From Gammaproteobacteria bacterium (GTDB lineage: Bacteria > Pseudomonadota > Gammaproteobacteria > UBA1113): a stretch of DNA of 64,000 nt. Location of the stretch: contig JAJNBM010000003.1 of NCBI GenBank assembly GCA_021156165.1, positions 1,817 through 65,816 on the forward strand. Reading direction: 5' to 3'. A program made the translations under genes and the position numbers. Each line of letters opens with the position of its first letter. The stretch's first letter is position 1. Under the pieces are notes generated by a model. It was not told the DNA's origin. It searched no databases and worked only from the letters and a program-made list of their open reading frames with translations. Positions 857-63,193 of the stretch are shown here, one piece after another.

Positions 857-932
<76 letters not shown>

Positions 933-954
933 AGAGAAAAATGACAGTCTTACT

Positions 955-1030
955 GTCCCCATCGTCTAGAGGCCTAGGACATTGCCCTTTCACGGCAGTA
1001 ACAGGGGTTCGAATCCCCTTGGGGACGCCA
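955..1030 (+). tRNA. tRNA-Glu (anticodon UUC)
   Basis: Very close to E. coli tRNA-Glu. Anticodon loop CTTTCAC; encoded CCA. Confidence 0.9.
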
Positions 1031-1074
1031 ATTTTTTTGGCTGTTTAGCTATAAGTTCATTTTTGTTCAAATAT

Positions 1075-1150
1075 GTCCCCATCGTCTAGAGGCCTAGGAC
1101 ATTGCCCTCTCACGGCAATAACAGGGGTTCGAATCCCCTTGGGGACGCCA
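1075..1150 (+). tRNA. tRNA-Glu paralog with anticodon CUC
   Basis: Differs from the 955-1030 copy at only 2 positions: anticodon loop CTCTCAC, plus a compensating stem change G to A. Confidence 0.85.
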
Positions 1151-26977: not shown

Positions 26978-27262
<285 letters not shown>

Positions 27263-27327
27263 GCAGTATTGTGGAAGAAAATAAAAGGTCTGTCAAGATG
27301 TATACCACTCGGCTTAGAATTATGGCA

Positions 27328-34818: not shown

Positions 34819-35658
34819 TTGACAGGCTCTATTTCTTACTTTACTATCGCCGTACCAGGCATAGGTTACATTACGCTACTATATTATTTTATAAAATCGG
34901 GAGCAATTGTGAATAACAACATTAAAACTATTGTCAAAGCCTCTTTTAAAGATTGCCCTATTGAAGAGAGAAAAATTTTTCATAAATCACATTGTCTCAT
35001 GCCAATCAGTATTGGGCAAAAAATACATGAAGGAGAAAAATTTATAGCTACCATGCGCTTAGTTGAAAGAACTTTTGCACGTTGTACTATCTTGCTAGAT
35101 GATAGCGTACAGAAATATACTTTAAAGATAGAATCCGAAACAGACTTAATAACTTTGCATCAGCAGGCCATTGAAGCCGGAACAGATTGGTTGCAGCGAC
35201 AAAAAAAGTTGTTATTGGAAGAACTGGCTATACCCTGTACCGTAATAAGATGGGATGATTGGCTTGTTCTGCCTGAATATCCTGAAAATCACAAAAAGGT
35301 AGCTTCTTTATACAATGAAAATTTAATTTATAGGGATGCCATTGATAATACTATCAAAGATTTTTTAGATAGGTATGTGGCACATGGTACAAGTTCTTCT
35401 TTTGATTATGTCAAGGCACATGATTTATGCTTTACCTACCTTTTAGAAGAGTGCGCTGTCATGTCACTTTGGGTTAAAGGAGAATATGATTTTGAATTGT
35501 ATCCAAGCGGTAGAAATAAAGCCATGGCGGCCACATATGAGTTTTTTATAAAAAACCAATACCCAAACTTGCTAAAATCAGTCGGATTGCGGTTTAAAAA
35601 ATATAAGAATATAATAGACCAAACGATGGGTGAACGAGAAGAGATGGCTAAATATTAA
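34819..35658 (+). CDS. cyclodipeptide synthase (CDPS)-like protein, XYP subfamily
   Basis: PISIGQK aligns to the CDPS G-x-S catalytic loop. YLLEE gives a Y and an E four residues on, matching AlbC Y178/E182. LYPSG gives Y-P, matching AlbC Y202/P203. Confidence 0.5.
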   Translation: MTGSISYFTIAVPGIGYITLLYYFIKSGAIVNNNIKTIVKASFKDCPIEERKIFHKSHCLMPISIGQKIHEGEKFIATMRLVERTFARCTILLDDSVQKYTLKIESETDLITLHQQAIEAGTDWLQRQKKLLLEELAIPCTVIRWDDWLVLPEYPENHKKVASLYNENLIYRDAIDNTIKDFLDRYVAHGTSSSFDYVKAHDLCFTYLLEECAVMSLWVKGEYDFELYPSGRNKAMAATYEFFIKNQYPNLLKSVGLRFKKYKNIIDQTMGEREEMAKY

Positions 35659-35666
35659 GGAACTCT

Positions 35667-35710
35667 GTTTGAGTAAAGCTGCTGGGGCGACCCAGCACCT
35701 CTGCTCAAAC
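35667..35710 (+). other. long imperfect stem-loop in the CDPS-kinase intergenic region
   Basis: gtttgagtaaagctgctgggg-cgac-cccagcacctctgctcaaac, about 15 of 19 positions paired. Confidence 0.3.
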
Positions 35711-35763
35711 CAGCAACTATCCTCTTTAACGCTAAGGGTGCTCAAAGCAGAACTGTATCTGAA

Positions 35764-38700
35764 ATGCGTTCACTCAAGCGTCTTGGCGAAAAACAACGTA
35801 TTTTTTTAGAGGGAGTTATTATAATGAAAGATGATGAGACAATAAAAGCGTTAGAGTCTGAAATTTTAGAACGAGATAATATAATTCAGGACCAAAAAAT
35901 AAAAATTGATCAGCTTTTTAATATTATAAATACCATTCCTGGTAGCGTATATTGGAAAGACTTAACCGGCCGTTATCTTGGTTGTAATGACTATCAAAAA
36001 AACATGAATGGTGGCAGAGACTTAATTGGCCTAAAAGATAATGAACTGCCCTGGGCTGAAAAAGTAGCTGAAATAAGAAAAAACGATGACGCTGTTATTT
36101 CTACGGGTGCTATTCTAGAATTTGAAGAACACCCTATTTTAGCCAGCGGCGAGCGCATTACTACGTTAACCCGCAAAGCACCTCTATATAATAAGGACAA
36201 AGATATAATTGGGGTCCTTGGAATTTCTCTAGATATTAGTGGTAGAGAAAAAAGTATTCAAAATATTATTCGCGAAAAAAACGTTTTAAAAGAAGAAAAG
36301 GAATTTATAGAATCAACCTTAAGCAATATAGTCGCCGATATGCCTGGGCATGTGTATTGGAAAAATAGAGAGGGTGTTTATCTGGGGTGTAATGATAGAC
36401 AGGCAAAAAGCCTAGGGTTTAATTCGGGCAAAGGTGTCATTGGCAAGACAGACTTTGATTTATCATGGGGGTCTAGTATTGCTGAAAATTTTAGGGAAAA
36501 TGACTTGTTAGTGATGAATACGCAGTGTATGCACACCGTAGAAGAAGATACCACTATAGACGGCGTAAAGAGGACTATGTTAAGCCAAAAAACGCCTCTT
36601 AAAGATAATAAGGGTAATATTGTAGGTGTTCTTGGTATCTCTATAGAGATTACAAGGTTAAAAAACATACAAGAGGAACTTGTACGCGCCAAAGAAAAAG
36701 CCGAAGCCGCTAACAAAGCAAAAACAGAATTTGTGCAAAACATGCAGCACGATATACGCACGCCCTGTGCAGGTCTTTGGGGCGTGTTGAACATACTAGC
36801 CAAAGCAGAAGAAGATCACAACAAAAAAGAAGCGTTAGACATGGCTGCTGCAGCGAGTAAAAAGCTTTTAGAACTATGCAATGAAGCAGTTGAATTCGGT
36901 GATTTGAGCAGCAATGTAAGGCCTGTACTTGAAAAAGCGCTAAATATACGTGAATTGGCGGAATCGATAGTTGAACTTAATAAACCAGCCGCTTTTGCTA
37001 AAGATCTGCTCATTCACTTTAAGGTGGATGCTTCAATACCCGCCCAAATCCTCTGCGATGAATTTCGCTTGAGCCGTATCCTCGTTAATTTAATGGGCAA
37101 TGCGTTAAAATTCACTAATAAAGGCGAAGTCGCTTTAAATCTCAAGGCCGAAGTAGATAAAGAGACACACCGCGGCTGGTTAACCCTAGAAATAAAGGAC
37201 ACGGGTATAGGCATTCCTGCAGACAAAATTAAGACTATTTATGAGAAATTTAGTCGTGCGGTGGCTTCTAATACCAACTTGTATCCCGGAACCGGTTTAG
37301 GTTTGTATGTGGTAAAAACTTTTGTGGATGAGCTAAACGGCAACATTGAGCTTGAAAGCCGTGAAAATGAAGGAACTTCGTTTAAAGTGGGCATTCCTTT
37401 TAAAGTTCGTTGGGAGGATATGAAAAAACCAGGCGTAGAAATTGACGAATATTTCAGATCGCCGATTGATCTGACCGCTGAAGTAACACAAAACCCAGAA
37501 GCAATTTTCCAAAAGACATCTCTAGCGAAAAAGCCATTTACTCATACGCTTTTAATTATCGAAGATGATAAAACCTGCCTTTTTGCGGAAAAGAATTTAT
37601 TGTCTACTTATACCAACCAGATTGATGTTGCGGAAAATGTAGCCGAAGCCTTAGAGAAATTAGCCACTAAACGATATGATTTAGTGATTTCTGATCTGGG
37701 TTTGCCAGATGGTTCCGGTAACGATATTGTCGCCAAGGTCAAAGCCACCCCAGAATCGGCGAACTATAACACCCCTTTTGTAGCGATGACGGCCCACCAA
37801 GACGCTTTAAAACATCAACAGGCGATGAAGGCGGGTTTTACAGCAACTCACATTAAACCTTTAGGTGCCGAAAAAGCGGTAGAGCTTTTAAAGTCTTATC
37901 CAGCGCAGGAATCTGGAATCTCACCTCAGGAAGTTATTATCTCTCCTAAAGTAGAAGGTAAACCCGTAATCGATTTGGCTTTAGGAAGGCAACGGATCGC
38001 AGCCAATAATGAAGAGCAAGCGATAGAAGCGCTAGGTGTTTTATGGGAAACTCTGCAAATAGATATCCCCCTATTGCAACTTGCAGCAGAAAATAACGAC
38101 CTTGCAGGGGCAAACGCTATTTTACTTAAGATACGCGGCGGCTTATATTACACTGGTACACCCCGCTTAGAGGAAGCCTGTGAGGTGTTGCATACAGAGG
38201 TAGGGCGCGGTGTTAAAGATTTGAGAAAAATTCATAGTTTATTTTCTGCGTTTTATGATGAGGCAAAACTATTTGCGGAGCAATTTAAAGAGCTAGTGAA
38301 GGGCGTGAATGCACAAAAAGAAGCTGAACATTTAAGAATGGTAAATGAAAAGCAAAAAGCACTGTTAGAACAGGAGGCAAAATTCACTCAAATAGCCAAT
38401 CAAGTCGCACATGATATACGCTCACCACTGGCCACTTTATCTATGATCGTGGAATCCTGCACACACATTCCGGAAACCCAGCGCCTCGCTTTAAGAGAAG
38501 CAGCCATCGGCATAGAAGATATTGCCAATCACCTACTCCATGAATATAAAAAAAAAGGCTCAGATGAAGTTACAGAGCATGAGGCATGTCACCCCCTCTT
38601 AGTGTCTGCTGCTTTGCTAGAATCCTTAACCCATAAAAAATATCAATACGACAAGTGCCCCATTCAGTTTGATTGCACAATGGCCCTCAATGCCCAATTT

Positions 38701-39792
38701 GCCTTTATTAAAATACAAGCCAGTGCTTTTAAGCGGATGTTGTCTAATTTAATGAACAATGCGGTAGATGCGCTTGAAGGTCAACCTGGAACAATTCATT
38801 TACATTTAGAAGCCGACACTGAATCGGTGAAAGTACATATTCAAGATAGTGGCAAAGGCATGCCAGCGGATGTGGCAGACAAGATCTTACATAAAATCGC
38901 TATAACGCAAGGTAAAAAATTAGGTCATGGCTTAGGATTTACTCAGGTGCGGGAAGCCTTGGAGCACAATCAAGGCGAATTAGAAATTGATTCTAAACTC
39001 GGTGTAGGCACGACAATCACCCTCTCTTTTCCTAGAACCAGCGCTCCACAGTGGGTAGCGCAAGAGATAGTATTAAACCCTGATGATACCCTTATTATCT
39101 TGGATGATGATAGCTCTATACATGGTGCTTGGGACACCCGTTTTGAGCCCCTGTTAAATAAAAACCCAGAGCTGCAATTAAAGCATTTTCAATTTGGCAG
39201 GGAAACGCTGGCATTTATCCAAAGATTAACACCCGCTGAAAAAGAGCACATTTTTCTGCTCTCGGATTATGAATTATTGAATCAAGAATATAATGGCTTA
39301 ACGATCATTGCGAAAAGCGGTATACAACGCTCTATTTTAGTCACTAGCCATTATGCCGATCCAGAGGTACAAGCAGAAGCTGTAAAAGCGGGCACTAAAA
39401 TTTTACCTAAACAATTGGCCGCTGAAGTGGTAATTAAAATAAATGATAGAGATGAAGTTACATCCGAAAAAGTGTATGCCGTTCTTGTAGACGATCATCC
39501 CGGCTTTACTAAAGCATTAGCACTCTATGCTTTCGATGACGATCAAATCACAGCTGAATACAATAATCCAGAACATCTTTTAAGAGATCTGGACAAATAC
39601 GCCAAAAACACCAAAATCTATTTGGATAATAATTATGCCACTTCAAAATTAACCGGTATAGAAGTAGCTAAAAAATTACATGAACAAGGCTATACGCATT
39701 TATATATCCTATCGGGCGAGTCAGCCTTAGAGGCACCCTCTTATGTAACCGTCATTGGAAAAAACGAAATAGAACGTATAAAAGATTTGTAG
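35764..39792 (+). CDS. multi-domain hybrid sensor histidine kinase (2 PAS, two kinase cores, receiver domains)
   Basis: Two PAS blocks; H-box MQHDIRTP with HATPase NLMGNALKF...GTGLGLY; REC with LVISDLGLPDG; second H-box VAHDIRSPL with NLMNNAVDA...GHGLGF; two further REC-like domains. Confidence 0.85.
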   Translation: MRSLKRLGEKQRIFLEGVIIMKDDETIKALESEILERDNIIQDQKIKIDQLFNIINTIPGSVYWKDLTGRYLGCNDYQKNMNGGRDLIGLKDNELPWAEKVAEIRKNDDAVISTGAILEFEEHPILASGERITTLTRKAPLYNKDKDIIGVLGISLDISGREKSIQNIIREKNVLKEEKEFIESTLSNIVADMPGHVYWKNREGVYLGCNDRQAKSLGFNSGKGVIGKTDFDLSWGSSIAENFRENDLLVMNTQCMHTVEEDTTIDGVKRTMLSQKTPLKDNKGNIVGVLGISIEITRLKNIQEELVRAKEKAEAANKAKTEFVQNMQHDIRTPCAGLWGVLNILAKAEEDHNKKEALDMAAAASKKLLELCNEAVEFGDLSSNVRPVLEKALNIRELAESIVELNKPAAFAKDLLIHFKVDASIPAQILCDEFRLSRILVNLMGNALKFTNKGEVALNLKAEVDKETHRGWLTLEIKDTGIGIPADKIKTIYEKFSRAVASNTNLYPGTGLGLYVVKTFVDELNGNIELESRENEGTSFKVGIPFKVRWEDMKKPGVEIDEYFRSPIDLTAEVTQNPEAIFQKTSLAKKPFTHTLLIIEDDKTCLFAEKNLLSTYTNQIDVAENVAEALEKLATKRYDLVISDLGLPDGSGNDIVAKVKATPESANYNTPFVAMTAHQDALKHQQAMKAGFTATHIKPLGAEKAVELLKSYPAQESGISPQEVIISPKVEGKPVIDLALGRQRIAANNEEQAIEALGVLWETLQIDIPLLQLAAENNDLAGANAILLKIRGGLYYTGTPRLEEACEVLHTEVGRGVKDLRKIHSLFSAFYDEAKLFAEQFKELVKGVNAQKEAEHLRMVNEKQKALLEQEAKFTQIANQVAHDIRSPLATLSMIVESCTHIPETQRLALREAAIGIEDIANHLLHEYKKKGSDEVTEHEACHPLLVSAALLESLTHKKYQYDKCPIQFDCTMALNAQFAFIKIQASAFKRMLSNLMNNAVDALEGQPGTIHLHLEADTESVKVHIQDSGKGMPADVADKILHKIAITQGKKLGHGLGFTQVREALEHNQGELEIDSKLGVGTTITLSFPRTSAPQWVAQEIVLNPDDTLIILDDDSSIHGAWDTRFEPLLNKNPELQLKHFQFGRETLAFIQRLTPAEKEHIFLLSDYELLNQEYNGLTIIAKSGIQRSILVTSHYADPEVQAEAVKAGTKILPKQLAAEVVIKINDRDEVTSEKVYAVLVDDHPGFTKALALYAFDDDQITAEYNNPEHLLRDLDKYAKNTKIYLDNNYATSKLTGIEVAKKLHEQGYTHLYILSGESALEAPSYVTVIGKNEIERIKDL

Positions 39793-39897: not shown

Positions 39898-41253
39898 CTA
39901 CTCGTCTTCGAAAATCATCTTCCCAGACAAACCATTCTCTTCCATGATTTCACGCAAGGCTCTTAATGCCTCTACTTGGATCTGTCTGACTCGTTCACGC
40001 GTTAAACCAATTTTGCGCCCCACCTCTTCTAAGGTTGATTTTTCTTGTCCTAACAACCCAAACCTATAGGCCAGAACTTGGCCTTGCTTTTCAGGCAGCT
40101 GCGCCAACCAGGTTTCAATATTTTCCCGCAAATTATCATCTAACAACATAGTTGCAGGATCAATGTTATTAGGATCCGCCAGAGTTTCCAATAAACTCTT
40201 ATCGGTATCTTTACCTATGGGCACGTCTACTGAAGTAATTCTTTCATCCAAACTTAACATGCGTTTAACATCTTCAACTGGTTTATCCAGCATTTCGGCA
40301 ATTTCTTCTGCACTCGGGGTATGATCCAATTGTTGCGTTAATAGCCGCGCGGCACGCAAATAGACGTTCAACTCTTTCACCACATGTATCGGTAAACGAA
40401 TCGTTCGTGTTTGATTCATGATGGCACGTTCTATGGTCTGTCGGATCCACCACGTGGCATAAGTTGAAAACCGAAAGCCGCGTTCGGGGTCAAATTTTTC
40501 CACGCCGCGGATCAAACCCAAATTACCTTCTTCAATTAAGTCCAAGAGGGCTAAACCTCTGTTAATGTAGCGTCTGGCAATTTTAACCACTAAGCGCAAA
40601 TTACTTTCTATCATACGCCGCCTAGCATTGGCATCGCCTTTTAAGGCTAAACGTGCATAATAAATTTCTTCTTCCGCGCTAAGTAAAGGCGAAAATCCTA
40701 TCTCACTTAAATACATCTGCGTTGCATCTAATGCTTTTGTTGACAGATGAAATCGTCTTTTTTCACTGACTCTTGCACTTTCCTCAGCCAAATCTTCCTC
40801 TAATACCGCTTCCTCATCGAAGTCTTCAAAAATGTATTCTTCTGGATAATTTTCATCGCCTTCGTCGTCCCCTAGGATCTCCTTTTCTAAGGAAATATCC
40901 ATTTCTTCATCAAAAGAAGCATCTTCAATATCTGTCATGTATTTGCTATCCAATGAGACTGGCGTTAATTTTTTGTTTTCAATGCACTCTACTGCATTTT
41001 CTTTTTGCTTCTTTTTAGAAGAAGTGGCTTTAGTTGCAACCGCTTTGGTCTTAGCAATGACTTTTTTCACTTGAGCCACCACCTTAGTGGCCACTTTAGT
41101 GGCTACTTTCTTTTTAGGTTTCGCCTCTGCCTTAAGACTTACTTTAGAAATTTTTGTTGGCACTGATTTTTTCTTAACCGTTGCTAACGATTTCTTCTTC
41201 GTTATCATCTTTTTAACGCCCATTATTTCCTCCTTGCCCTTTCCCTTATCCAT
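39898..41253 (-). CDS. rpoS: RNA polymerase sigma factor RpoS with an approximately 95-residue Lys/Ala/Thr/Val-rich N-terminal extension
   Basis: Residues 106-451 align end to end with E. coli RpoS, including [15 protein letters not shown]. The upstream in-frame codons are KKK/AT/KV-rich. The Met at codon 11 has a perfect AAGGAGG SD. Confidence 0.85.
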
Positions 41254-41269
41254 AATCTCAACCTCTATA

Positions 41270-41326
41270 CTATTCGCATTTGATTCTTAAGCTTGGTTGC
41301 CTTGGCCTAAGAATCAAATGCTATGG
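41270..41326. mobile_element. short MITE-like element, copy R2, with internal deletion
   Basis: cgcatttgattcttaag ... ctaagaatcaaatgctatg. Lies between the OMP stop and the rpoS SD. Confidence 0.5.
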
Positions 41327-41332
41327 GTAATA

Positions 41333-42034
41333 CTAGGCCAAAAAGAATTTCAGTCCTAAATCAAGATTGTTGGTTCTGTAATCTGGGATACTACTGCCAC
41401 CACCTAGATCACCATTCACTACAAAAGCATTTACAAAACGGTACTCTAGATCGAGCTCCACCGTCGGATTAAAGGCGTAGGATATTCCACCCAATGCTTG
41501 TACCGTAAAAGCACCTTTCCAGGTGCCATCATCGTCCTGATTAGGTTGATGAGCCAATTGGTAATTATAGTCGATGGCTGAACCACCTACACCCACCCCA
41601 GCAAAAACACCAAAACCGGTATCGCCCCGTAGGTTGAAAATAGCATTGGTCATGGCACTGTAGCTGGTGGTATGCCCATCTAAACTGATATCGGGAAGCC
41701 CAGGAACACGTAATTTATCGGCACCATTCCGGGCTGCGTTTAATTCTTCTTCTATACGAAACCATCTATAATCATAGCCTAGGGTAATACCGCCATTATA
41801 ACCTGGATTACTTTCCATCGTTACACCATGGCCATAGTTTTGATCATTCAGTAAAGTGCCGCCCCCTTCTACTCCCAAATAAAATCCCTTGCGGGGCGCA
41901 GGGCTGCCATCAGCGGTAACCACGGAGCCTGCCGGTGGAGCATTGTCTTCATCCCAACTGCCAGCGTGGGCGGTGCTAAAACCGATAATACCTAGAACCA
42001 AGAAAAAACTACTTTTTTTGAATAATCTGTACAT
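41333..42034 (-). CDS. outer-membrane beta-barrel protein (OmpW/Opa-like)
   Basis: Signal peptide ending AHA, alternating amphipathic strands, and an aromatic-rich C-terminus. Confidence 0.55.
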   Translation of the reverse strand: MYRLFKKSSFFLVLGIIGFSTAHAGSWDEDNAPPAGSVVTADGSPAPRKGFYLGVEGGGTLLNDQNYGHGVTMESNPGYNGGITLGYDYRWFRIEEELNAARNGADKLRVPGLPDISLDGHTTSYSAMTNAIFNLRGDTGFGVFAGVGVGGSAIDYNYQLAHQPNQDDDGTWKGAFTVQALGGISYAFNPTVELDLEYRFVNAFVVNGDLGGGSSIPDYRTNNLDLGLKFFLA

Positions 42035-44654: not shown

Positions 44655-44768
44655 ATGGTAGTTTGCCTATCCATTTGCGACAGTACGCTGCAAACCCCGC
44701 CAGACTCGGAAGAGAGCAACGGTAGTGGTTGAATTGTGTGCAGATTGTGGTGGGTGAACTGCCCTCCT
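44655..44768 (+). ncRNA. ffs: signal recognition particle RNA (4.5S, small type), immediately upstream of dnaX
   Basis: CCAGACUC-GGAA-GAGAGCAACGG matches the domain IV GNRA tetraloop and asymmetric loop (E. coli CCAGGUCC-GGAA-GGAAGCAGCC). Flanking arms pair. The ends are approximate. Confidence 0.5.
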
Positions 44769-59590: not shown

Positions 59591-62500
59591 TTACCCCAAT
59601 TTAACAGGGCTCCTCCTCATCTCTGAAATCGCCTCAGTTGTACGGGATGTTCTATTATCATTTGCATACTGAAGCACTGTTTCTGCATCTGCATTTTCTG
59701 GCCATTTCGCACTCAAAGGATTTGAGAAAAATGAAAGTCGTTTATTATAAGAAGGTAAAAAATCCCTCATCCATTGTGTTTTGATCTCTTTCATTTGTTT
59801 CCATTTTAATAACTCACCCACAGCAACAATATCAGAATAATTATAAATCAATTTAGCCAATTGGCCCGTTTCTATCATACGGGCCACAATAAGCTCAAAA
59901 ATATTTTTGTTTTCATTCAAGATCCTTGCAAGATTGATAAAATCATCGACACTGGAAATCCATAGTAAGTTACTATCATTTATACCCAGCAGGCCTGAAA
60001 AAAATTCAGTTTGCTGAGTGGGGGTAAGCCAAGCGGCTAATGCTGTGAGTGCGTAGCCACAAGGGTTTCCTAGAATAGAAACTTTTATCTCTTCAAATAT
60101 TTCAGTACGTTGTTGAACGCGTAGATGCTCCATGATATGATTGAAAACCATTTTATTCAATGGCTCAGAATTAATCATATTTATTAGTGCCGACTTCATA
60201 ACATTAAAAATGATAGATTGCTGTTCAGGATAAAAATACGGGCAGTTATTCGCCTCACCACCCATCCATTTTGAAAATACCTCAGGACACTTAATAATCT
60301 CCGGTAATACGTGGGTAATGGCATAAAGGCCATAAGTTACAGTTTTCTCATCTTGCGCTGAAAAATAAGTGGGAGAGTTAATGATCTCTCTAAGTCTACT
60401 ATTTATTATAGCTTCTTTTTGGTATCGTCCATTTTCGTCTAAAAAAGAGAGGGCTATGGGAATAAGGTAAACAGTAGCGGGATCCCTTAAATATGGCAGC
60501 AATTTTTCATCCATATTATCGTTATGCACTGCTTCTAAAATATATTTAAAAGGTAGCAGTTCCATAAGGCATGCTTGAGTTTCCCTAACAAATATCTTTT
60601 GCTCCTCTTTCTCACATGCTAAAAACAAATCCATATAGCAGTCAAAGTAATCCTCCAACTCCTCCTCAAATAAGGTATTGAGACGTCCCTGTTGAGCCAA
60701 AATCAAAATAAATGGTATGAGAAATTTTTGAGGCATCCCCATCTTAAGGCCTTCTAAATCCTCCAATGACTCTATCAGCCCAGTTTGGGTTTCCAGAAAT
60801 TTTACAACGGATTCCTCGGACACTACTCCTTCAAGAATTCTTAATATTTCATATAACTCCCCCACGTGCTGTATTTTGCAGGATAGATCCTTCAAATGGG
60901 TTTCAATGATTTTTGCTTTTTGAGCCCGATCCAAGCCACTGATGAGAGAAATAAATTGAGAAGCTGAAGCGAGTCTGCTCATATCTATGATTTGGGTGAT
61001 TAGGAAATATCGTTTATCTGCGCTTAGCGGATCCATTAATGTAGAAAAAAAAATTTCTGGGTCCTGTGCTTCGTAAGGAGGAAACTTATAAAAAATCTCT
61101 TTGAAATAGCCACTCATCGCTGCACAGGCTATTTCAAATCGCTCATTATTGAGGGAATTTAAAGTAACGCCCATATTTTTTGGGTTTCTCCCCATGGCTG
61201 TAACAAACAAGTTTTCGGTAAGTTGAGAATTGAGATGCCCCTGTTGAGCCAAAATAAAAATAAATGGTATTAGAAATTTTTGAGGCATCCGTACCTTAAG
61301 GTTTTCTAAATTCGCAGGTGACTCTATCAGCCCAGGCAAATGGTCACTTTGGGCTTCCAGAAATTTTACAAATGACTCCTCTGACACCCCTTCTGGAATA
61401 ATTCTTAATATTTCATATAATTCCCTCGCGTGCTGTATTTTGGAGGATAGATCCTTCAAATGGGTTTCAATGATGTTTGCTCTTTGAACCAAATCCAAGC
61501 CACTGATGAGAGAAATAAATTGAGAAATTGAAGCAAGCCTATCCATGTCTAGGATTTTTTCAATTAAAAAATAGCGCTTGTCTGCACTGAGCGCACCCTT
61601 TAATGCAGAAAAAAATATGTGTGGGTTAAGATGGCTTGGGTCATAGGGAGGAACTTTATAAAAAATTTTTTTGAAATAATCACTCATCGCTACACAGGCT
61701 ATTTCAAATCGCTCATTATTTAAATAATTTAAAAGCATGCCCATTTTTTGGGGTTCTCTTTGCATGGTTGTGTCAAACAGTTCTTCGATAAATTGCGATA
61801 AGACAGCCCCTAGCATATCTGGTTTGCTTAAGAAAGCGAACGTGGCCAAGTCGGCATAAGCATTGATTGGATCCTTATTGAAAGCAATTACGATTTCGCT
61901 GCGGTAGATTTCATTTAGGCAGAGTACGTTGAAATCATCCACACTTAATAAGGTTAGGTCTTCAATATGAGCAATGCTAAACTTAACGCCTAAAGCATGG
62001 AGAAACTCAATACTTGGGATCTTAAGACTATCCACTCCCTTATAAGCAACAGAATTTTCTGTTTTTTCAACCAATATTTTCTGTGCTTCAGCTACTGCCT
62101 CCGTTGCATCTTTAATGAGTTCAATTTTGCTCTCTGCACTTAGGGTGATATTGGCTAAAGTTGCTTCATGCCCTCTCATTGCATCCGATAATACTTTTTG
62201 TCTGGTATCAATACAGGTCGTAACCGTAGGCTGTGGAACAATATTTCCCTCTGCAACCACTTGATTGTAGCGAGCTTCAGTTTTGTCCGTTATATTCAAT
62301 AAGAGATCAATTTGTGCCCGTACCAAGGGGGGAATATCATTTTTTTGTTCCGGAGTTAACTTGTCATAAAACTGCTGGAAATTAAGAATAAGGATATAAA
62401 CACCTTCACTTGCAGCACCTTCACTGCCTAGCCCCTGTTTACTGTGAAACCGCAGGCCTATTATAAGGGTATTAAGATGGCTCAGTAAATTGCTGCTATC

Positions 62501-63193
62501 GTTTGTGAGGGTGTCAAAGTGGCGTTTGGCTTCTATAACTGATCTGGTTTCAAAAGAATGTTGAAATAAACGGTGTTTTTCTTCTGCGTCCAAATAAGCC
62601 AAACCACCATCGCGAATGGCTGGATCATCGCTTTCATAATTATAATAGTGGTTACAAATATTTGTTTCCACAGCGGAAGGGGTTATTTGTATCAAAAATT
62701 TGACGGGTAACAAATACTTGCCATTACGATTGATAATATGCGTTTTTATTACCTGTTGAAGCGGTATGCTGTCTAAATCGGGATAAACTGAGCTATCCAC
62801 AGTCACCTGGGTTTGTATCCCTGGCATCAGTATATGGATGGGACTGGGACTAGTTTCAATGGGCACCCCTTCAGCAGGCTTTTTATTTTTTAAATTTTGA
62901 GCTATTTCGGTAGCAATATCACACAGCAGTTCGGTAACGGGGTCATCAGGCAATGCGGTATAGCCCACAGGGGAAAGACCATATTTTTTCCAATTTTCTG
63001 CTAAAAATATTTGTAAATCGGCTAATAGCTTTTCCTCATCATTACCCTTTTTTTCTATTATCTCCAGGAGAGCAGCCAATACTTCCTTACGATATGCAAG
63101 GATAATTTGTCCCCTTAAAGGGATAGGAGAAACGTCCTCAAGCCCTTTAAGTTGTTCAATTTTAAGCTTTAATTGATCTTGAATCGCTGCCAT
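59591..63193 (-). CDS. large (1200 aa) hypothetical protein with two tandem repeats of roughly 190 aa
   Basis: Uninterrupted 3.6-kb ORF. The repeated block NNERFEIAC...MPQKFLIPFI.ILAQQG occurs twice. Confidence 0.6.
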   Translation of the reverse strand: MAAIQDQLKLKIEQLKGLEDVSPIPLRGQIILAYRKEVLAALLEIIEKKGNDEEKLLADLQIFLAENWKKYGLSPVGYTALPDDPVTELLCDIATEIAQNLKNKKPAEGVPIETSPSPIHILMPGIQTQVTVDSSVYPDLDSIPLQQVIKTHIINRNGKYLLPVKFLIQITPSAVETNICNHYYNYESDDPAIRDGGLAYLDAEEKHRLFQHSFETRSVIEAKRHFDTLTNDSSNLLSHLNTLIIGLRFHSKQGLGSEGAASEGVYILILNFQQFYDKLTPEQKNDIPPLVRAQIDLLLNITDKTEARYNQVVAEGNIVPQPTVTTCIDTRQKVLSDAMRGHEATLANITLSAESKIELIKDATEAVAEAQKILVEKTENSVAYKGVDSLKIPSIEFLHALGVKFSIAHIEDLTLLSVDDFNVLCLNEIYRSEIVIAFNKDPINAYADLATFAFLSKPDMLGAVLSQFIEELFDTTMQREPQKMGMLLNYLNNERFEIACVAMSDYFKKIFYKVPPYDPSHLNPHIFFSALKGALSADKRYFLIEKILDMDRLASISQFISLISGLDLVQRANIIETHLKDLSSKIQHARELYEILRIIPEGVSEESFVKFLEAQSDHLPGLIESPANLENLKVRMPQKFLIPFIFILAQQGHLNSQLTENLFVTAMGRNPKNMGVTLNSLNNERFEIACAAMSGYFKEIFYKFPPYEAQDPEIFFSTLMDPLSADKRYFLITQIIDMSRLASASQFISLISGLDRAQKAKIIETHLKDLSCKIQHVGELYEILRILEGVVSEESVVKFLETQTGLIESLEDLEGLKMGMPQKFLIPFILILAQQGRLNTLFEEELEDYFDCYMDLFLACEKEEQKIFVRETQACLMELLPFKYILEAVHNDNMDEKLLPYLRDPATVYLIPIALSFLDENGRYQKEAIINSRLREIINSPTYFSAQDEKTVTYGLYAITHVLPEIIKCPEVFSKWMGGEANNCPYFYPEQQSIIFNVMKSALINMINSEPLNKMVFNHIMEHLRVQQRTEIFEEIKVSILGNPCGYALTALAAWLTPTQQTEFFSGLLGINDSNLLWISSVDDFINLARILNENKNIFELIVARMIETGQLAKLIYNYSDIVAVGELLKWKQMKEIKTQWMRDFLPSYNKRLSFFSNPLSAKWPENADAETVLQYANDNRTSRTTEAISEMRRSPVKLG
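60660..61770. repeat. tandem duplication of roughly 540-570 bp inside the 1200-aa gene
   Basis: ccctgttgagccaaaat(c/a)aaaataaatggtat at 60687 and 61228. gct(a/g)cacaggctatttcaaatcgctcattatt at 61121 and 61691. Confidence 0.5.

What the first reader, a model, noticed from the sequence alone, without database searches (positions are those of the whole stretch)
40930..41253. RpoS carries an in-frame histone-H1-like Lys-rich N-terminal extension with a strong SD
Residues 106-451 (from [12 protein letters not shown]) are a complete RpoS of about 346 aa. The 105 codons upstream are open in the same frame and encode ...[72 protein letters not shown]..., which resembles bacterial histone-H1-like proteins (Hc1/Hq1 type). 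A stop-free run of 105 codons is very unlikely by chance in AT-rich DNA. The second Met (codon 11) is preceded by a perfect AAGGAGG at a 5-nt spacing, whereas the canonical RpoS Met has no SD. A stationary-phase sigma factor with a DNA-binding polycationic tail would be unusual.
Basis: partly seen in the sequence, partly recalled or inferred. Interest (0 to 1): 0.65.

Follow-up and report, generated by a model that had tools for sequence, protein, structure and literature searches.

The report
RpoS with a translated lysine-rich tail
The stationary-phase sigma factor gene of this uncultured gammaproteobacterium really does encode an extra ~95-residue, lysine-rich, probably disordered N-terminal tail that is conserved and translated across its lineage; the tail resembles histone H1 only in composition, and what it does is untested.

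Summary
ORF 39898-41253 (-) is an rpoS ortholog (NCBIfam equivalog above cut-off). It carries about 95 Lys-rich codons (29 K, 0 R, net +24), then a 67-residue acidic segment (net -22), then sigma regions 1.2-4.

The extension is translated:
- About 17 homologues of 422-475 aa from independent assemblies keep it.
- In 9 of 10 loci read, a CAAGGAG(G) Shine-Dalgarno sits 5-6 nt before an ATG/GTG at the second Met (Met11).
- The 'canonical' Met106 is missing in several homologues.
- All indels are multiples of 3.
- dN/dS is 0.15-0.40 (pS>pN, pooled Fisher p=6e-12).

The annotated first ATG (GenBank MCD6045014.1, 451 aa) is probably 10 codons too far upstream.

'Histone H1/Hc1-like' is only a compositional resemblance. 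Pfam, PDB and a 1.84-billion-protein HMMER search gave no match. AlphaFold predicts disorder apart from one conserved amphipathic helix.

The closest precedents are the lysine repeats noted in the primary sigma factors Streptomyces HrdB and Bordetella RpoD, and the disordered N-extension of M. tuberculosis SigA.

The most likely function (inferred) is a polyanion/DNA tether, or an electrostatic partner of the adjacent acidic region, tuning RpoS-holoenzyme activity. I rate it a new variant of a known kind, of moderate interest.

The parts
39898..41253 (-). rpoS ORF as annotated in GenBank (451 aa, MCD6045014.1), counted from the first ATG and including the stop
   Evidence: ORF list. NCBIfam RpoS equivalogs NF004207 (488 bits, cut-off 394) and TIGR02394 (452 bits, cut-off 379). 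Pfam Sigma70_r1_2, r2, r3 and r4. Exact-sequence look-up.
41229..41235 (-). Shine-Dalgarno AAGGAGG, 5 nt upstream of the Met11 ATG
   Evidence: Sequence. CAAGGAG(G) at 5-6 nt from the start is present in 9 of 10 loci read; L088, the most divergent, lacks it. It is unpaired in the predicted mRNA fold.
41221..41223 (-). Probable true start codon (Met11 of the annotated ORF), giving a 441-aa product
   Evidence: Homologues start here with ATG or GTG, and several have an in-frame stop a few codons upstream, so the first 10 annotated codons have no counterpart.
40939..41223 (-). Lys-rich N-terminal extension, residues 11-105 (95 aa; 29 K, 0 R; net +24; 14 K-blocks separated by 1-6 neutral residues)
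   Evidence: Composition. dN/dS 0.15-0.40. pS>pN in four separate pairs, pooled p=6e-12. Excess of third-position substitutions, and all gaps multiples of 3 in a nucleotide-level alignment. pLDDT below 50 while the core reaches 70-95.
41026..41085 (-). Best-conserved motif of the extension, [20 protein letters not shown] (residues 57-76): a predicted amphipathic cationic helix
   Evidence: Alignment. AlphaFold helix 54-73 at pLDDT about 52-55 and helix 55-69 in the shallower run. Highest hydrophobic moment, 0.56, at residues 49-66. Coordinates.
40738..40938 (-). Acidic segment, residues 106-172 (27 D+E in 67 residues, net -22), containing the conserved YPEE(F/Y)IFE. It corresponds to the acidic N-terminus of ordinary RpoS.
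   Evidence: Composition. It aligns with the acidic N-termini of Legionellaceae RpoS, which lack the basic part. dN/dS 0.15-0.44. Predicted disordered.
39901..40737 (-). Sigma regions 1.2 to 4 (residues 173-451)
   Evidence: Pfam domains at 176-435. dN/dS 0.002-0.024. pLDDT 70-95.
41270..41313 (-). Near-perfect 17-bp-stem hairpin in the OMP-rpoS spacer, with no T-run. It is absent from relatives whose spacers are 28-35 nt. Role unknown.
   Evidence: Sequence. Fold of 41180-41335: -33.9 kcal/mol, z = -3.8. Relatives' spacers.
41333..42034 (-). Upstream neighbour, an outer-membrane beta-barrel protein (233 aa). It occupies the place that nlpD holds in enterobacteria, and its position is conserved in the clade.
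   Evidence: Pfam OMP_b-brl. Synteny amidase - OMP - rpoS - DUF2066 in L001, L003, L005, L086 and L087.

Best explanation
This is a genuine rpoS gene whose product carries a lineage-specific, translated, intrinsically disordered polycationic N-terminal tail. The order is: about 95 Lys-rich residues, then the usual acidic N-terminal segment, then sigma regions 1.2-4.

Shown here: translation starts at the SD-preceded second Met (41223), and selection preserves the reading frame, the lysine positions and the net charge rather than the exact sequence.

Inferred, by analogy with lysine repeats that bind DNA in Streptomyces TopA, HupS and DdbA and with the H1 C-terminal tail: the tail is a non-sequence-specific polyanion binder (DNA most likely, RNA or polyphosphate possibly). 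In other sigma factors the acidic N-terminus sits in, and is expelled from, the downstream DNA channel. A tail attached to that segment could do two things. In free sigma it could pair electrostatically with the charge-matched acidic block (+24 against -22). In the holoenzyme it could contact DNA, changing promoter search, open-complex formation or recycling by the RpoS holoenzyme.

It is not a homologue of histone H1, Hc1 or Hq1.
For: Identity as RpoS.

Translated extension:
- About 17 homologues of 422-475 aa keep it at 72-94% overall identity.
- The SD and start are conserved at Met11 in 9 of 10 loci.
- Met106 is absent in L003, L086 and L089.
- dN/dS is 0.15-0.40 in the Lys-rich part, similar to the acidic part at 0.15-0.44.
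- Four separate pairs each give pS>pN at p of about 1e-4; pooled p=6e-12.
- Substitutions are enriched at third positions, and every gap is a multiple of 3 in a nucleotide alignment not guided by codons.
- A-runs never exceed 8, and AAG is enriched relative to the core in the window's subclade.

Charge rather than sequence is conserved. The basic block is 71-133 aa, Lys only (0-1 Arg in all but one member), net +15 to +35. The acidic block that follows is net -16 to -22. Sixteen Lys columns are conserved in at least 8 of 9 sequences.

Disorder: the N-terminal 171 residues have pLDDT below 50 except helix 54-73, while the core scores 70-95.

Precedents from papers:
- Lysine repeats bind DNA and stabilise the TopA-DNA complex, and occur in HrdB and B. 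pertussis RpoD (PMC5714199).
- Deleting the disordered 205-aa N-extension of Mtb SigA lowers steady-state Vmax about 100-fold (PMC11888270).
- DdbA fuses an H1-like domain to an RNAP-modulating DksA-like domain (PMC3643593).
Against: - There are no expression, proteomic or binding data. All sequences come from metagenome assemblies of an uncultured lineage.
- No recognisable DNA-binding fold or family matches.
- Ala content is 12%, well below the 27% or more used to define the DNA-binding lysine repeats of Actinobacteria.
- The best-conserved element is a Val/Ile-rich amphipathic helix, which could instead mediate protein or membrane contacts.
- Alignment of low-complexity sequence makes the dN/dS values approximate.
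- Low pLDDT is not proof of disorder.
- A charge-balanced basic/acidic pair might simply self-neutralise with little functional effect.
Confidence: 0.5

Rival explanations
1. The upstream 95-105 codons are untranslated 5' leader. RpoS starts at Met106 (MTDIED) and the open frame is fortuitous or is a gene-calling artefact.
For: Met106 onward is a full-length RpoS by comparison with E. coli and Legionellaceae. In the second, marine clade, NCBI annotates a short 333-aa form where other callers give 446 aa. In that clade my dN/dS test was uninformative.
Against: - The SD and start are conserved at Met11 in 9 of 10 loci.
- Met106 is missing in L003, L086 and L089 and has no SD.
- dN/dS is 0.15-0.40, and pS>pN with pooled p=6e-12.
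- All indels are in frame.
- No sigma-70-type promoter was found on this strand inside the region.
Confidence: 0.04
2. Assembly or sequencing error fused a small stand-alone histone-like gene to rpoS by removing a stop codon.
For: The window is a single MAG contig. Lys-rich stand-alone nucleoid proteins do exist in other bacteria (own knowledge: Hc1, Hq1, AlgP).
Against: The same continuous ORF appears in about 17 clusters from NCBI, ENA, JGI and Logan assemblies. No stand-alone relative of the tail exists among 1.84 billion representatives. Legionellaceae and other relatives have no small Lys-rich ORF upstream of rpoS.
Confidence: 0.01
3. The tail is translated, but its main role is to control RpoS level or availability rather than to contact DNA. 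It could be a degron or protease-adaptor handle, a polyphosphate-binding switch, or an intramolecular mask of the acidic region.
For: Own knowledge, not tested here: the N-terminus of E. coli RpoS takes part in ClpX recognition, polyP accumulates in stationary phase, and Lys-rich proteins bind it. Tested here: the basic and acidic blocks are nearly charge-matched across the clade, and disordered termini are typical protease entry sites.
Against: No adaptor, protease or polyP gene is linked in the window. Nothing distinguishes this reading from DNA binding by sequence alone. The two are not mutually exclusive.
Confidence: 0.25
4. The conserved cationic amphipathic helix (residues about 54-73) anchors RpoS to anionic membranes or to a partner protein, sequestering or localising it.
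For: The highest hydrophobic moment, 0.56, falls on [18 protein letters not shown]. It is the best-conserved stretch and the only predicted helix in the tail.
Against: Helix confidence is low (pLDDT about 52-55). The surrounding roughly 75 residues are plain Lys-rich low complexity, which a membrane anchor does not need. I know of no precedent for this in group-2 sigma factors.
Confidence: 0.1
5. The tail is a nearly neutral low-complexity expansion, tolerated because the N-terminus is disordered, with no specific function.
For: Sequence turnover is fast, length varies (71-133 aa) and there are internal duplications (e.g. [13 protein letters not shown] in P0005). Other RpoS clades show unrelated N-terminal expansions.
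Against: dN/dS is clearly below 1. Lys positions and net charge are retained across sequences only 42-72% identical in the N-terminal region (residues up to region 1.2). No member of the clade has lost the tail. The strong SD is retained.
Confidence: 0.1

Closest known systems
Lysine repeats in the primary sigma factors Streptomyces HrdB and Bordetella pertussis RpoD (noted in Strzalka et al. 2017, PMC5714199)
   Same: A sigma-70-family factor carrying blocks of 1-3 Lys separated by a few small neutral residues. In that paper such repeats were shown to bind DNA in TopA, and they were over-represented in DNA-binding proteins.
   Different: Those are group-1 housekeeping sigmas of GC-rich bacteria with Ala-rich spacers (27% Ala or more). 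Here it is the group-2 stationary-phase sigma of a 41% GC gammaproteobacterium, with Val/Thr/Ser/Ala spacers (12% Ala). No sequence homology was detected. The function of the repeats in those sigma factors was not tested either.
M. tuberculosis SigA 205-residue N-terminal extension (PMC11888270)
   Same: A long, predicted-disordered N-terminal extension on a sigma factor that is absent from its close paralogue. Its deletion cuts steady-state transcription about 100-fold and changes the response to transcription factors. This shows that such tails can matter.
   Different: Different sigma group and a non-homologous sequence. The NCBIfam actinobacterial sigma models align across the tail but score far below cut-off. 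The mechanism is unknown there too.
Streptomyces DdbA (PMC3643593)
   Same: A histone-H1-like Lys-rich N-terminal DNA-binding region fused to a protein that acts on RNA polymerase (a DksA-like domain).
   Different: The partner domain is DksA-like, not a sigma factor. DdbA has S/T-A/T-A-K-K pentapeptide repeats and gave significant BLAST hits to H1-type proteins; this tail gives none.
Bacterial histone-H1-like nucleoid proteins: Chlamydia Hc1/Hc2, Coxiella Hq1, Pseudomonas AlgP (own knowledge)
   Same: Lys-rich, low-complexity, polycationic composition.
   Different: Those are stand-alone nucleoid proteins. No Pfam Hc1, HC2 or linker-histone match was found. Pro and Ala content is lower here and Val is higher. 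The tail is covalently joined to an acidic block and a sigma core.
Sigma-70 region 1.1 and the acidic N-terminus of ordinary RpoS
   Same: Residues 106-172 are the acidic counterpart (net -22). Position in the protein implies the tail sits next to the element that occupies the DNA channel in the holoenzyme (established for sigma-70; own knowledge and PMC11888270).
   Different: Ordinary RpoS proteins (E. coli, Legionellaceae) have only the acidic part. The basic block upstream of it is the new feature.

Membership tests
RpoS (stationary-phase sigma factor, group 2) | Score above the curated cut-off of the NCBIfam equivalog models | tested here: met
   NF004207: 488.2 bits against 394. TIGR02394: 451.7 bits against 378.7. 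RpoD models fall below their cut-offs.
RpoS (stationary-phase sigma factor, group 2) | Sigma-70 regions 1.2, 2, 3 and 4 all present | tested here: met
   Pfam Sigma70_r1_2, r2, r3 and r4, all above gathering score.
RpoS (stationary-phase sigma factor, group 2) | Induction in, and control of, the stationary-phase or stress regulon | not testable with these tools
   Uncultured organism; no expression data.
Bacterial histone H1-like proteins (Hc1/Hc2/Hq1 type) | Sequence-family membership (Pfam Hc1/HC2 or detectable homology) | tested here: not met
   No such family at E<=1 on the whole protein or at E<=10 on the tail alone or on three homologous tails. Zero hits at E<=1e-3 among 1.84e9 representatives. 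Caveat: HMMER's filters drop most matches above about 0.1.
Bacterial histone H1-like proteins (Hc1/Hc2/Hq1 type) | Polycationic Lys-rich low-complexity composition | tested here: met
   30.5% Lys, net +24 over 95 residues.
Bacterial histone H1-like proteins (Hc1/Hc2/Hq1 type) | DNA binding and condensation | not testable with these tools
   Needs EMSA, condensation assays or microscopy.
Eukaryotic linker histone H1 | Winged-helix globular domain (Pfam Linker_histone) | tested here: not met
   No Pfam hit. AlphaFold gives no folded domain in residues 1-171.
Lysine repeats as defined by Strzalka et al. 2017 | At least 5 repeats of 1-3 basic residues separated by 2-9 neutral residues, and at least 10% Lys | tested here: met
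   14 K-blocks; 30.5% Lys. Definition from PMC5714199.
Lysine repeats as defined by Strzalka et al. 2017 | At least 27% Ala | tested here: not met
   11 Ala in 95 residues (12%). The spacers are V/T/S/A.
Sigma-70 region 1.1 | Match to the folded acidic domain (Pfam Sigma70_r1_1) | tested here: not met
   No hit. Only the acidic composition of residues 106-172 is shared. This is normal for RpoS.

The most novel reading that the evidence does not exclude
RpoS in this lineage doubles as a nucleoid-associated or condensate-forming protein. The block-polyampholyte N-terminus (+24 followed by -22) would let the sigma factor coat or compact DNA, or co-condense with polyphosphate or RNA, in non-growing cells. 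That would physically couple nucleoid state to the choice of sigma factor. A similar solution may have arisen independently in a marine nlpD-rpoS clade that has an unrelated basic-then-acidic extension.
Probability: 0.1. Interest if true: 0.75.

Novelty: new variant of a known kind. Interest (0 to 1): 0.42.

Why it matters
N-terminal regions of sigma factors gate DNA entry into RNA polymerase, and recent work on M. tuberculosis SigA shows that a disordered N-extension can change output about 100-fold.

A conserved polycationic tail sitting directly on the acidic N-terminus of the general stress sigma factor is a natural experiment. It bears on how charge blocks next to the DNA channel tune promoter engagement, and on whether a sigma factor can carry its own non-specific DNA tether. 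It is easy to test with recombinant proteins and E. coli core enzyme.

There is also a practical point. The GenBank start is probably 10 codons too long in this genome, and annotation pipelines disagree on starts for extended RpoS proteins (333 against 446 aa in the marine clade).

Tried and rejected
- Word-indexed search with the tail alone found 14 candidates, none significant. The low-complexity words are probably uninformative.
- phmmer of residues 11-172 against 1.84e9 representatives gave 0 hits. One caveat: at 50% clustering the clade may be represented by a tail-less or diverged RpoS, and bias filters apply.
- Pfam on four tails at E<=10 gave only sub-threshold noise (Ta1207 at 13.8 bits against 26.3, plus DUFs).
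- The PDB sequence search gave only uL29 at E=4.3.
- The first AlphaFold run, with 20 sequences, was poor throughout (mean pLDDT 49.8), so it could not discriminate. I repeated it with 109 sequences. I did no fold search because the tail has no confident fold.
- dN/dS for the marine clade (L090-L092) was uninformative: the tails are too diverged or saturated (values 0.5-1.0 on unreliable alignments).
- Taxonomic placement is unresolved. The RpoS core is 72-78% identical to many gammaproteobacteria. MetG drops from 72% or more within the clade to about 60% against Sedimenticola, Methylomonas and Thiodiazotropha. I therefore dropped an initial idea that the lineage is Legionellales with a developmental cycle.
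- Ribosome sliding on poly(A) tracks is rejected: the longest A-run is 6-8.
- An internal promoter or short isoform is not supported: no promoter-like site on the minus strand in 40700-41700 and no SD before Met106.
- No plasmid match.
- Literature searches for an RpoS Lys-rich extension found nothing.

Full report
**1. What is in the sequence**

The minus-strand ORF 39898..41253 encodes 451 aa. Pfam finds sigma-70 regions 1.2, 2, 3 and 4 between residues 176 and 435. Both NCBIfam RpoS equivalogs score above their curated cut-offs (488 against 394 bits; 452 against 379), while the RpoD, RpoH and other models fall below theirs. The RpoS profile alignment begins at residue 133 (profile position 13).

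Upstream of it lie two blocks of opposite charge:
- Residues 11-105: 29 Lys, no Arg, net +24.
- Residues 106-172: 27 Asp+Glu, net -22.

E. coli RpoS has only about 54 mainly acidic residues before region 1.2. Here there are 172.

The nearest in-frame stop is 12 codons upstream of the first ATG. At this base composition, 105 open codons have a chance probability of 4e-4 to 1e-3. AAGGAGG (41235-41229) lies 5 nt before the second ATG (41223), and nothing SD-like precedes Met106.

**2. Is the extension translated?**

A search of 5.8 billion proteins found the identical protein (GenBank MCD6045014.1, annotated 451 aa) and a tight group of about 17 clusters of 422-475 aa. These cover 86-98% of the query at 71-94% identity. 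Aligned, they all carry a Lys-rich block, then an acidic block, then the core.

I retrieved DNA for nine of them from independent ENA, NCBI and Logan assemblies and from GTDB species representatives.

- **Conserved start.** In nine of the ten loci read (all but L088, the most divergent, where the Lys-rich frame seems to continue upstream), CAAGGAG(G) sits 5-6 nt before an ATG or GTG at the position of the window's Met11. In several there is an in-frame stop a few codons upstream. The first ten annotated codons of the window ([10 protein letters not shown]) thus have no counterpart elsewhere. The conserved start is Met11, giving a 441-aa product.
- **Met106 is not universal.** It is replaced by Phe or Leu in L003, L086 and L089, so it cannot be the general start.
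- **Purifying selection.** Nei-Gojobori dN/dS is 0.15-0.40 for the Lys-rich block, 0.15-0.44 for the acidic block and 0.002-0.024 for the core.
- **Significance.** In four phylogenetically separate pairs, pS exceeds pN with Fisher p of about 1e-4 each; pooled p=6e-12.
- **Codon-position and indel pattern.** Substitutions concentrate at third codon positions. In a nucleotide alignment that was not guided by codons, every gap is a multiple of three.
- **No poly(A) tracks.** A-runs never exceed 8 nt. In the window's subclade AAG is used far more in the tail than in the core, as expected if long poly(A) tracks are avoided in a translated region.
- **Accessible SD.** The SD is unpaired in the predicted mRNA fold.

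Taken together this is strong comparative evidence that the tail is part of the protein. It is not direct evidence; no expression data exist.

**3. What the tail is**

No family matches it:
- Pfam on the whole protein at E<=1 and on four tails at E<=10 gives only sub-threshold noise.
- PDB sequences give nothing.
- A word-indexed search gives nothing.
- An exhaustive phmmer of residues 11-172 against 1.84 billion cluster representatives gives zero hits.

'Histone H1 / Hc1 / Hq1-like' therefore describes composition, not relatedness.

With a 109-sequence alignment, AlphaFold models the sigma core at pLDDT 70-95. It leaves residues 1-171 below 50, except a marginal helix at 54-73. That helix coincides with the best-conserved motif, [20 protein letters not shown] (41085-41026), and with the peak hydrophobic moment.

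What is conserved across the clade is charge and lysine positions rather than sequence:
- The basic block is 71-133 aa, essentially Lys only, net +15 to +35.
- The acidic block that follows is net -16 to -22.
- Sixteen Lys columns are conserved in at least 8 of 9 sequences.

The tail contains 14 Lys blocks separated by 1-6 neutral residues.

**4. Context and distribution**

- **Synteny.** The order dinB-like gene, amidase, OMP beta-barrel, rpoS, DUF2066, CDP-alcohol phosphatidyltransferase, AI-2E transporter, Hda is shared by the clade.
- **Differences in the window.** It has about 5.5 kb inserted between rpoS and DUF2066, and a 44-nt hairpin in the OMP-rpoS spacer.
- **How widespread.** Only two GTDB species representatives carry the tail, both unnamed gammaproteobacterial MAGs, one from Lake Mendota.
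- **Relatives without it.** Legionellaceae and other named relatives have only the acidic N-terminus.
- **Taxonomic placement.** MetG identity falls from 72% or more within the clade to about 60% against any named genus, and the RpoS core does not discriminate. The lineage is a deep, uncultured gammaproteobacterial group. I do not claim it is Legionellales.

**5. Mechanism**

The steps shown are the gene identity, the start site, the purifying selection and the conserved block-charge architecture. The rest is inference.

Lysine repeats of the same general pattern bind DNA and stabilise the enzyme-DNA complex in Streptomyces TopA. The same paper noted them in HrdB and B. pertussis RpoD (PMC5714199). 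An H1-like Lys-rich domain gives DNA binding to the RNAP-modulating protein DdbA (PMC3643593). Deleting the disordered N-extension of Mtb SigA lowers Vmax by two orders of magnitude and inverts the effect of CarD and RbpA (PMC11888270).

The sigma N-terminus lies in, and is displaced from, the downstream DNA channel. This is established for sigma-70 and summarised in PMC11888270. A polycation attached to the acidic segment is therefore well placed to do two things: bind DNA non-specifically, and pair with the adjacent, charge-matched acidic block in free sigma.

I consider this polyanion-tether or electrostatic-switch reading the most likely. My confidence is about 0.9 that the tail is translated and about 0.35-0.4 that DNA is the main ligand.

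The rivals are:
- Control of stability or polyP binding.
- A membrane or partner anchor through the amphipathic helix.
- Neutral low-complexity expansion.
- An untranslated leader or an assembly error. The data speak strongly against these two.

**6. Novelty**

I found no paper describing a Lys-rich extension on RpoS. The extended ORF is already in GenBank without comment. Lys repeats or disordered N-extensions on primary sigma factors are known. I therefore rate this a new variant of a known kind, of moderate interest: conserved, clean and readily testable, but not outside current concepts.

Noticed in passing
P0045, P0050, P0053, P0060, P0078, P0108, P0027, P0096; loci L090-L092: A second group of RpoS proteins (422-492 aa), common in marine metagenomes including TARA, sits in canonical surE/pcm-nlpD-rpoS synteny. 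It has an unrelated basic (K/R/T/A/P-rich) then acidic N-terminal extension, and several share the start MK(H/N)S(E/D)T. NCBI annotates one member at 333 aa where other callers give 446 aa. My dN/dS test was uninformative because the tails are too diverged, so translation there is unproven.
   Followed up: partly
window 41224-41253: The GenBank start (first ATG, giving 451 aa) adds 10 codons ([10 protein letters not shown]) that no homologue shares. Relatives have in-frame stops there, so the annotation is probably 10 codons too long.
   Followed up: yes
window 41270-41313: A near-perfect 17-bp-stem hairpin without a T-run lies in the OMP-rpoS spacer. Close relatives with 28-35 nt spacers lack it, while L089 has a different GC-rich hairpin at the same place. 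It could be a terminator-like or regulatory element, or a small insertion.
   Followed up: partly
window 26978-27263 (-): An FMN riboswitch upstream of ribD matches all 138 model positions but spans 286 nt, implying an insertion of about 150 nt in a variable region. The insertion contains an 18-mer (27146-27163) that matches the left arm of the rpoS-upstream hairpin with 3 mismatches.
   Followed up: no
window 34819-39792: About 5.5 kb lies between rpoS and DUF2066 that relatives lack. It holds a 1342-aa hybrid sensor kinase (2 PAS, HisKA, HATPase, receiver, and a second GHKL domain) and a 279-aa ORF with no Pfam match (compared with 12-14).
   Followed up: no
window 59591-63193 (-): A 1200-aa ORF has no Pfam family at E<=1e-5.
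   Followed up: no
P0017, P0020 (database proteins, not in the window): Escherichia albertii and Salmonella RpoS entries of 434 and 388 aa contain internal tandem duplications of region 1.2-2 or region 2-3. These are probably natural rpoS duplication alleles or assembly artefacts.
   Followed up: no
window 857-1147 (+) and 44664-44759 (+): A cluster of three tRNA genes, and the SRP RNA gene immediately upstream of dnaX.
   Followed up: no
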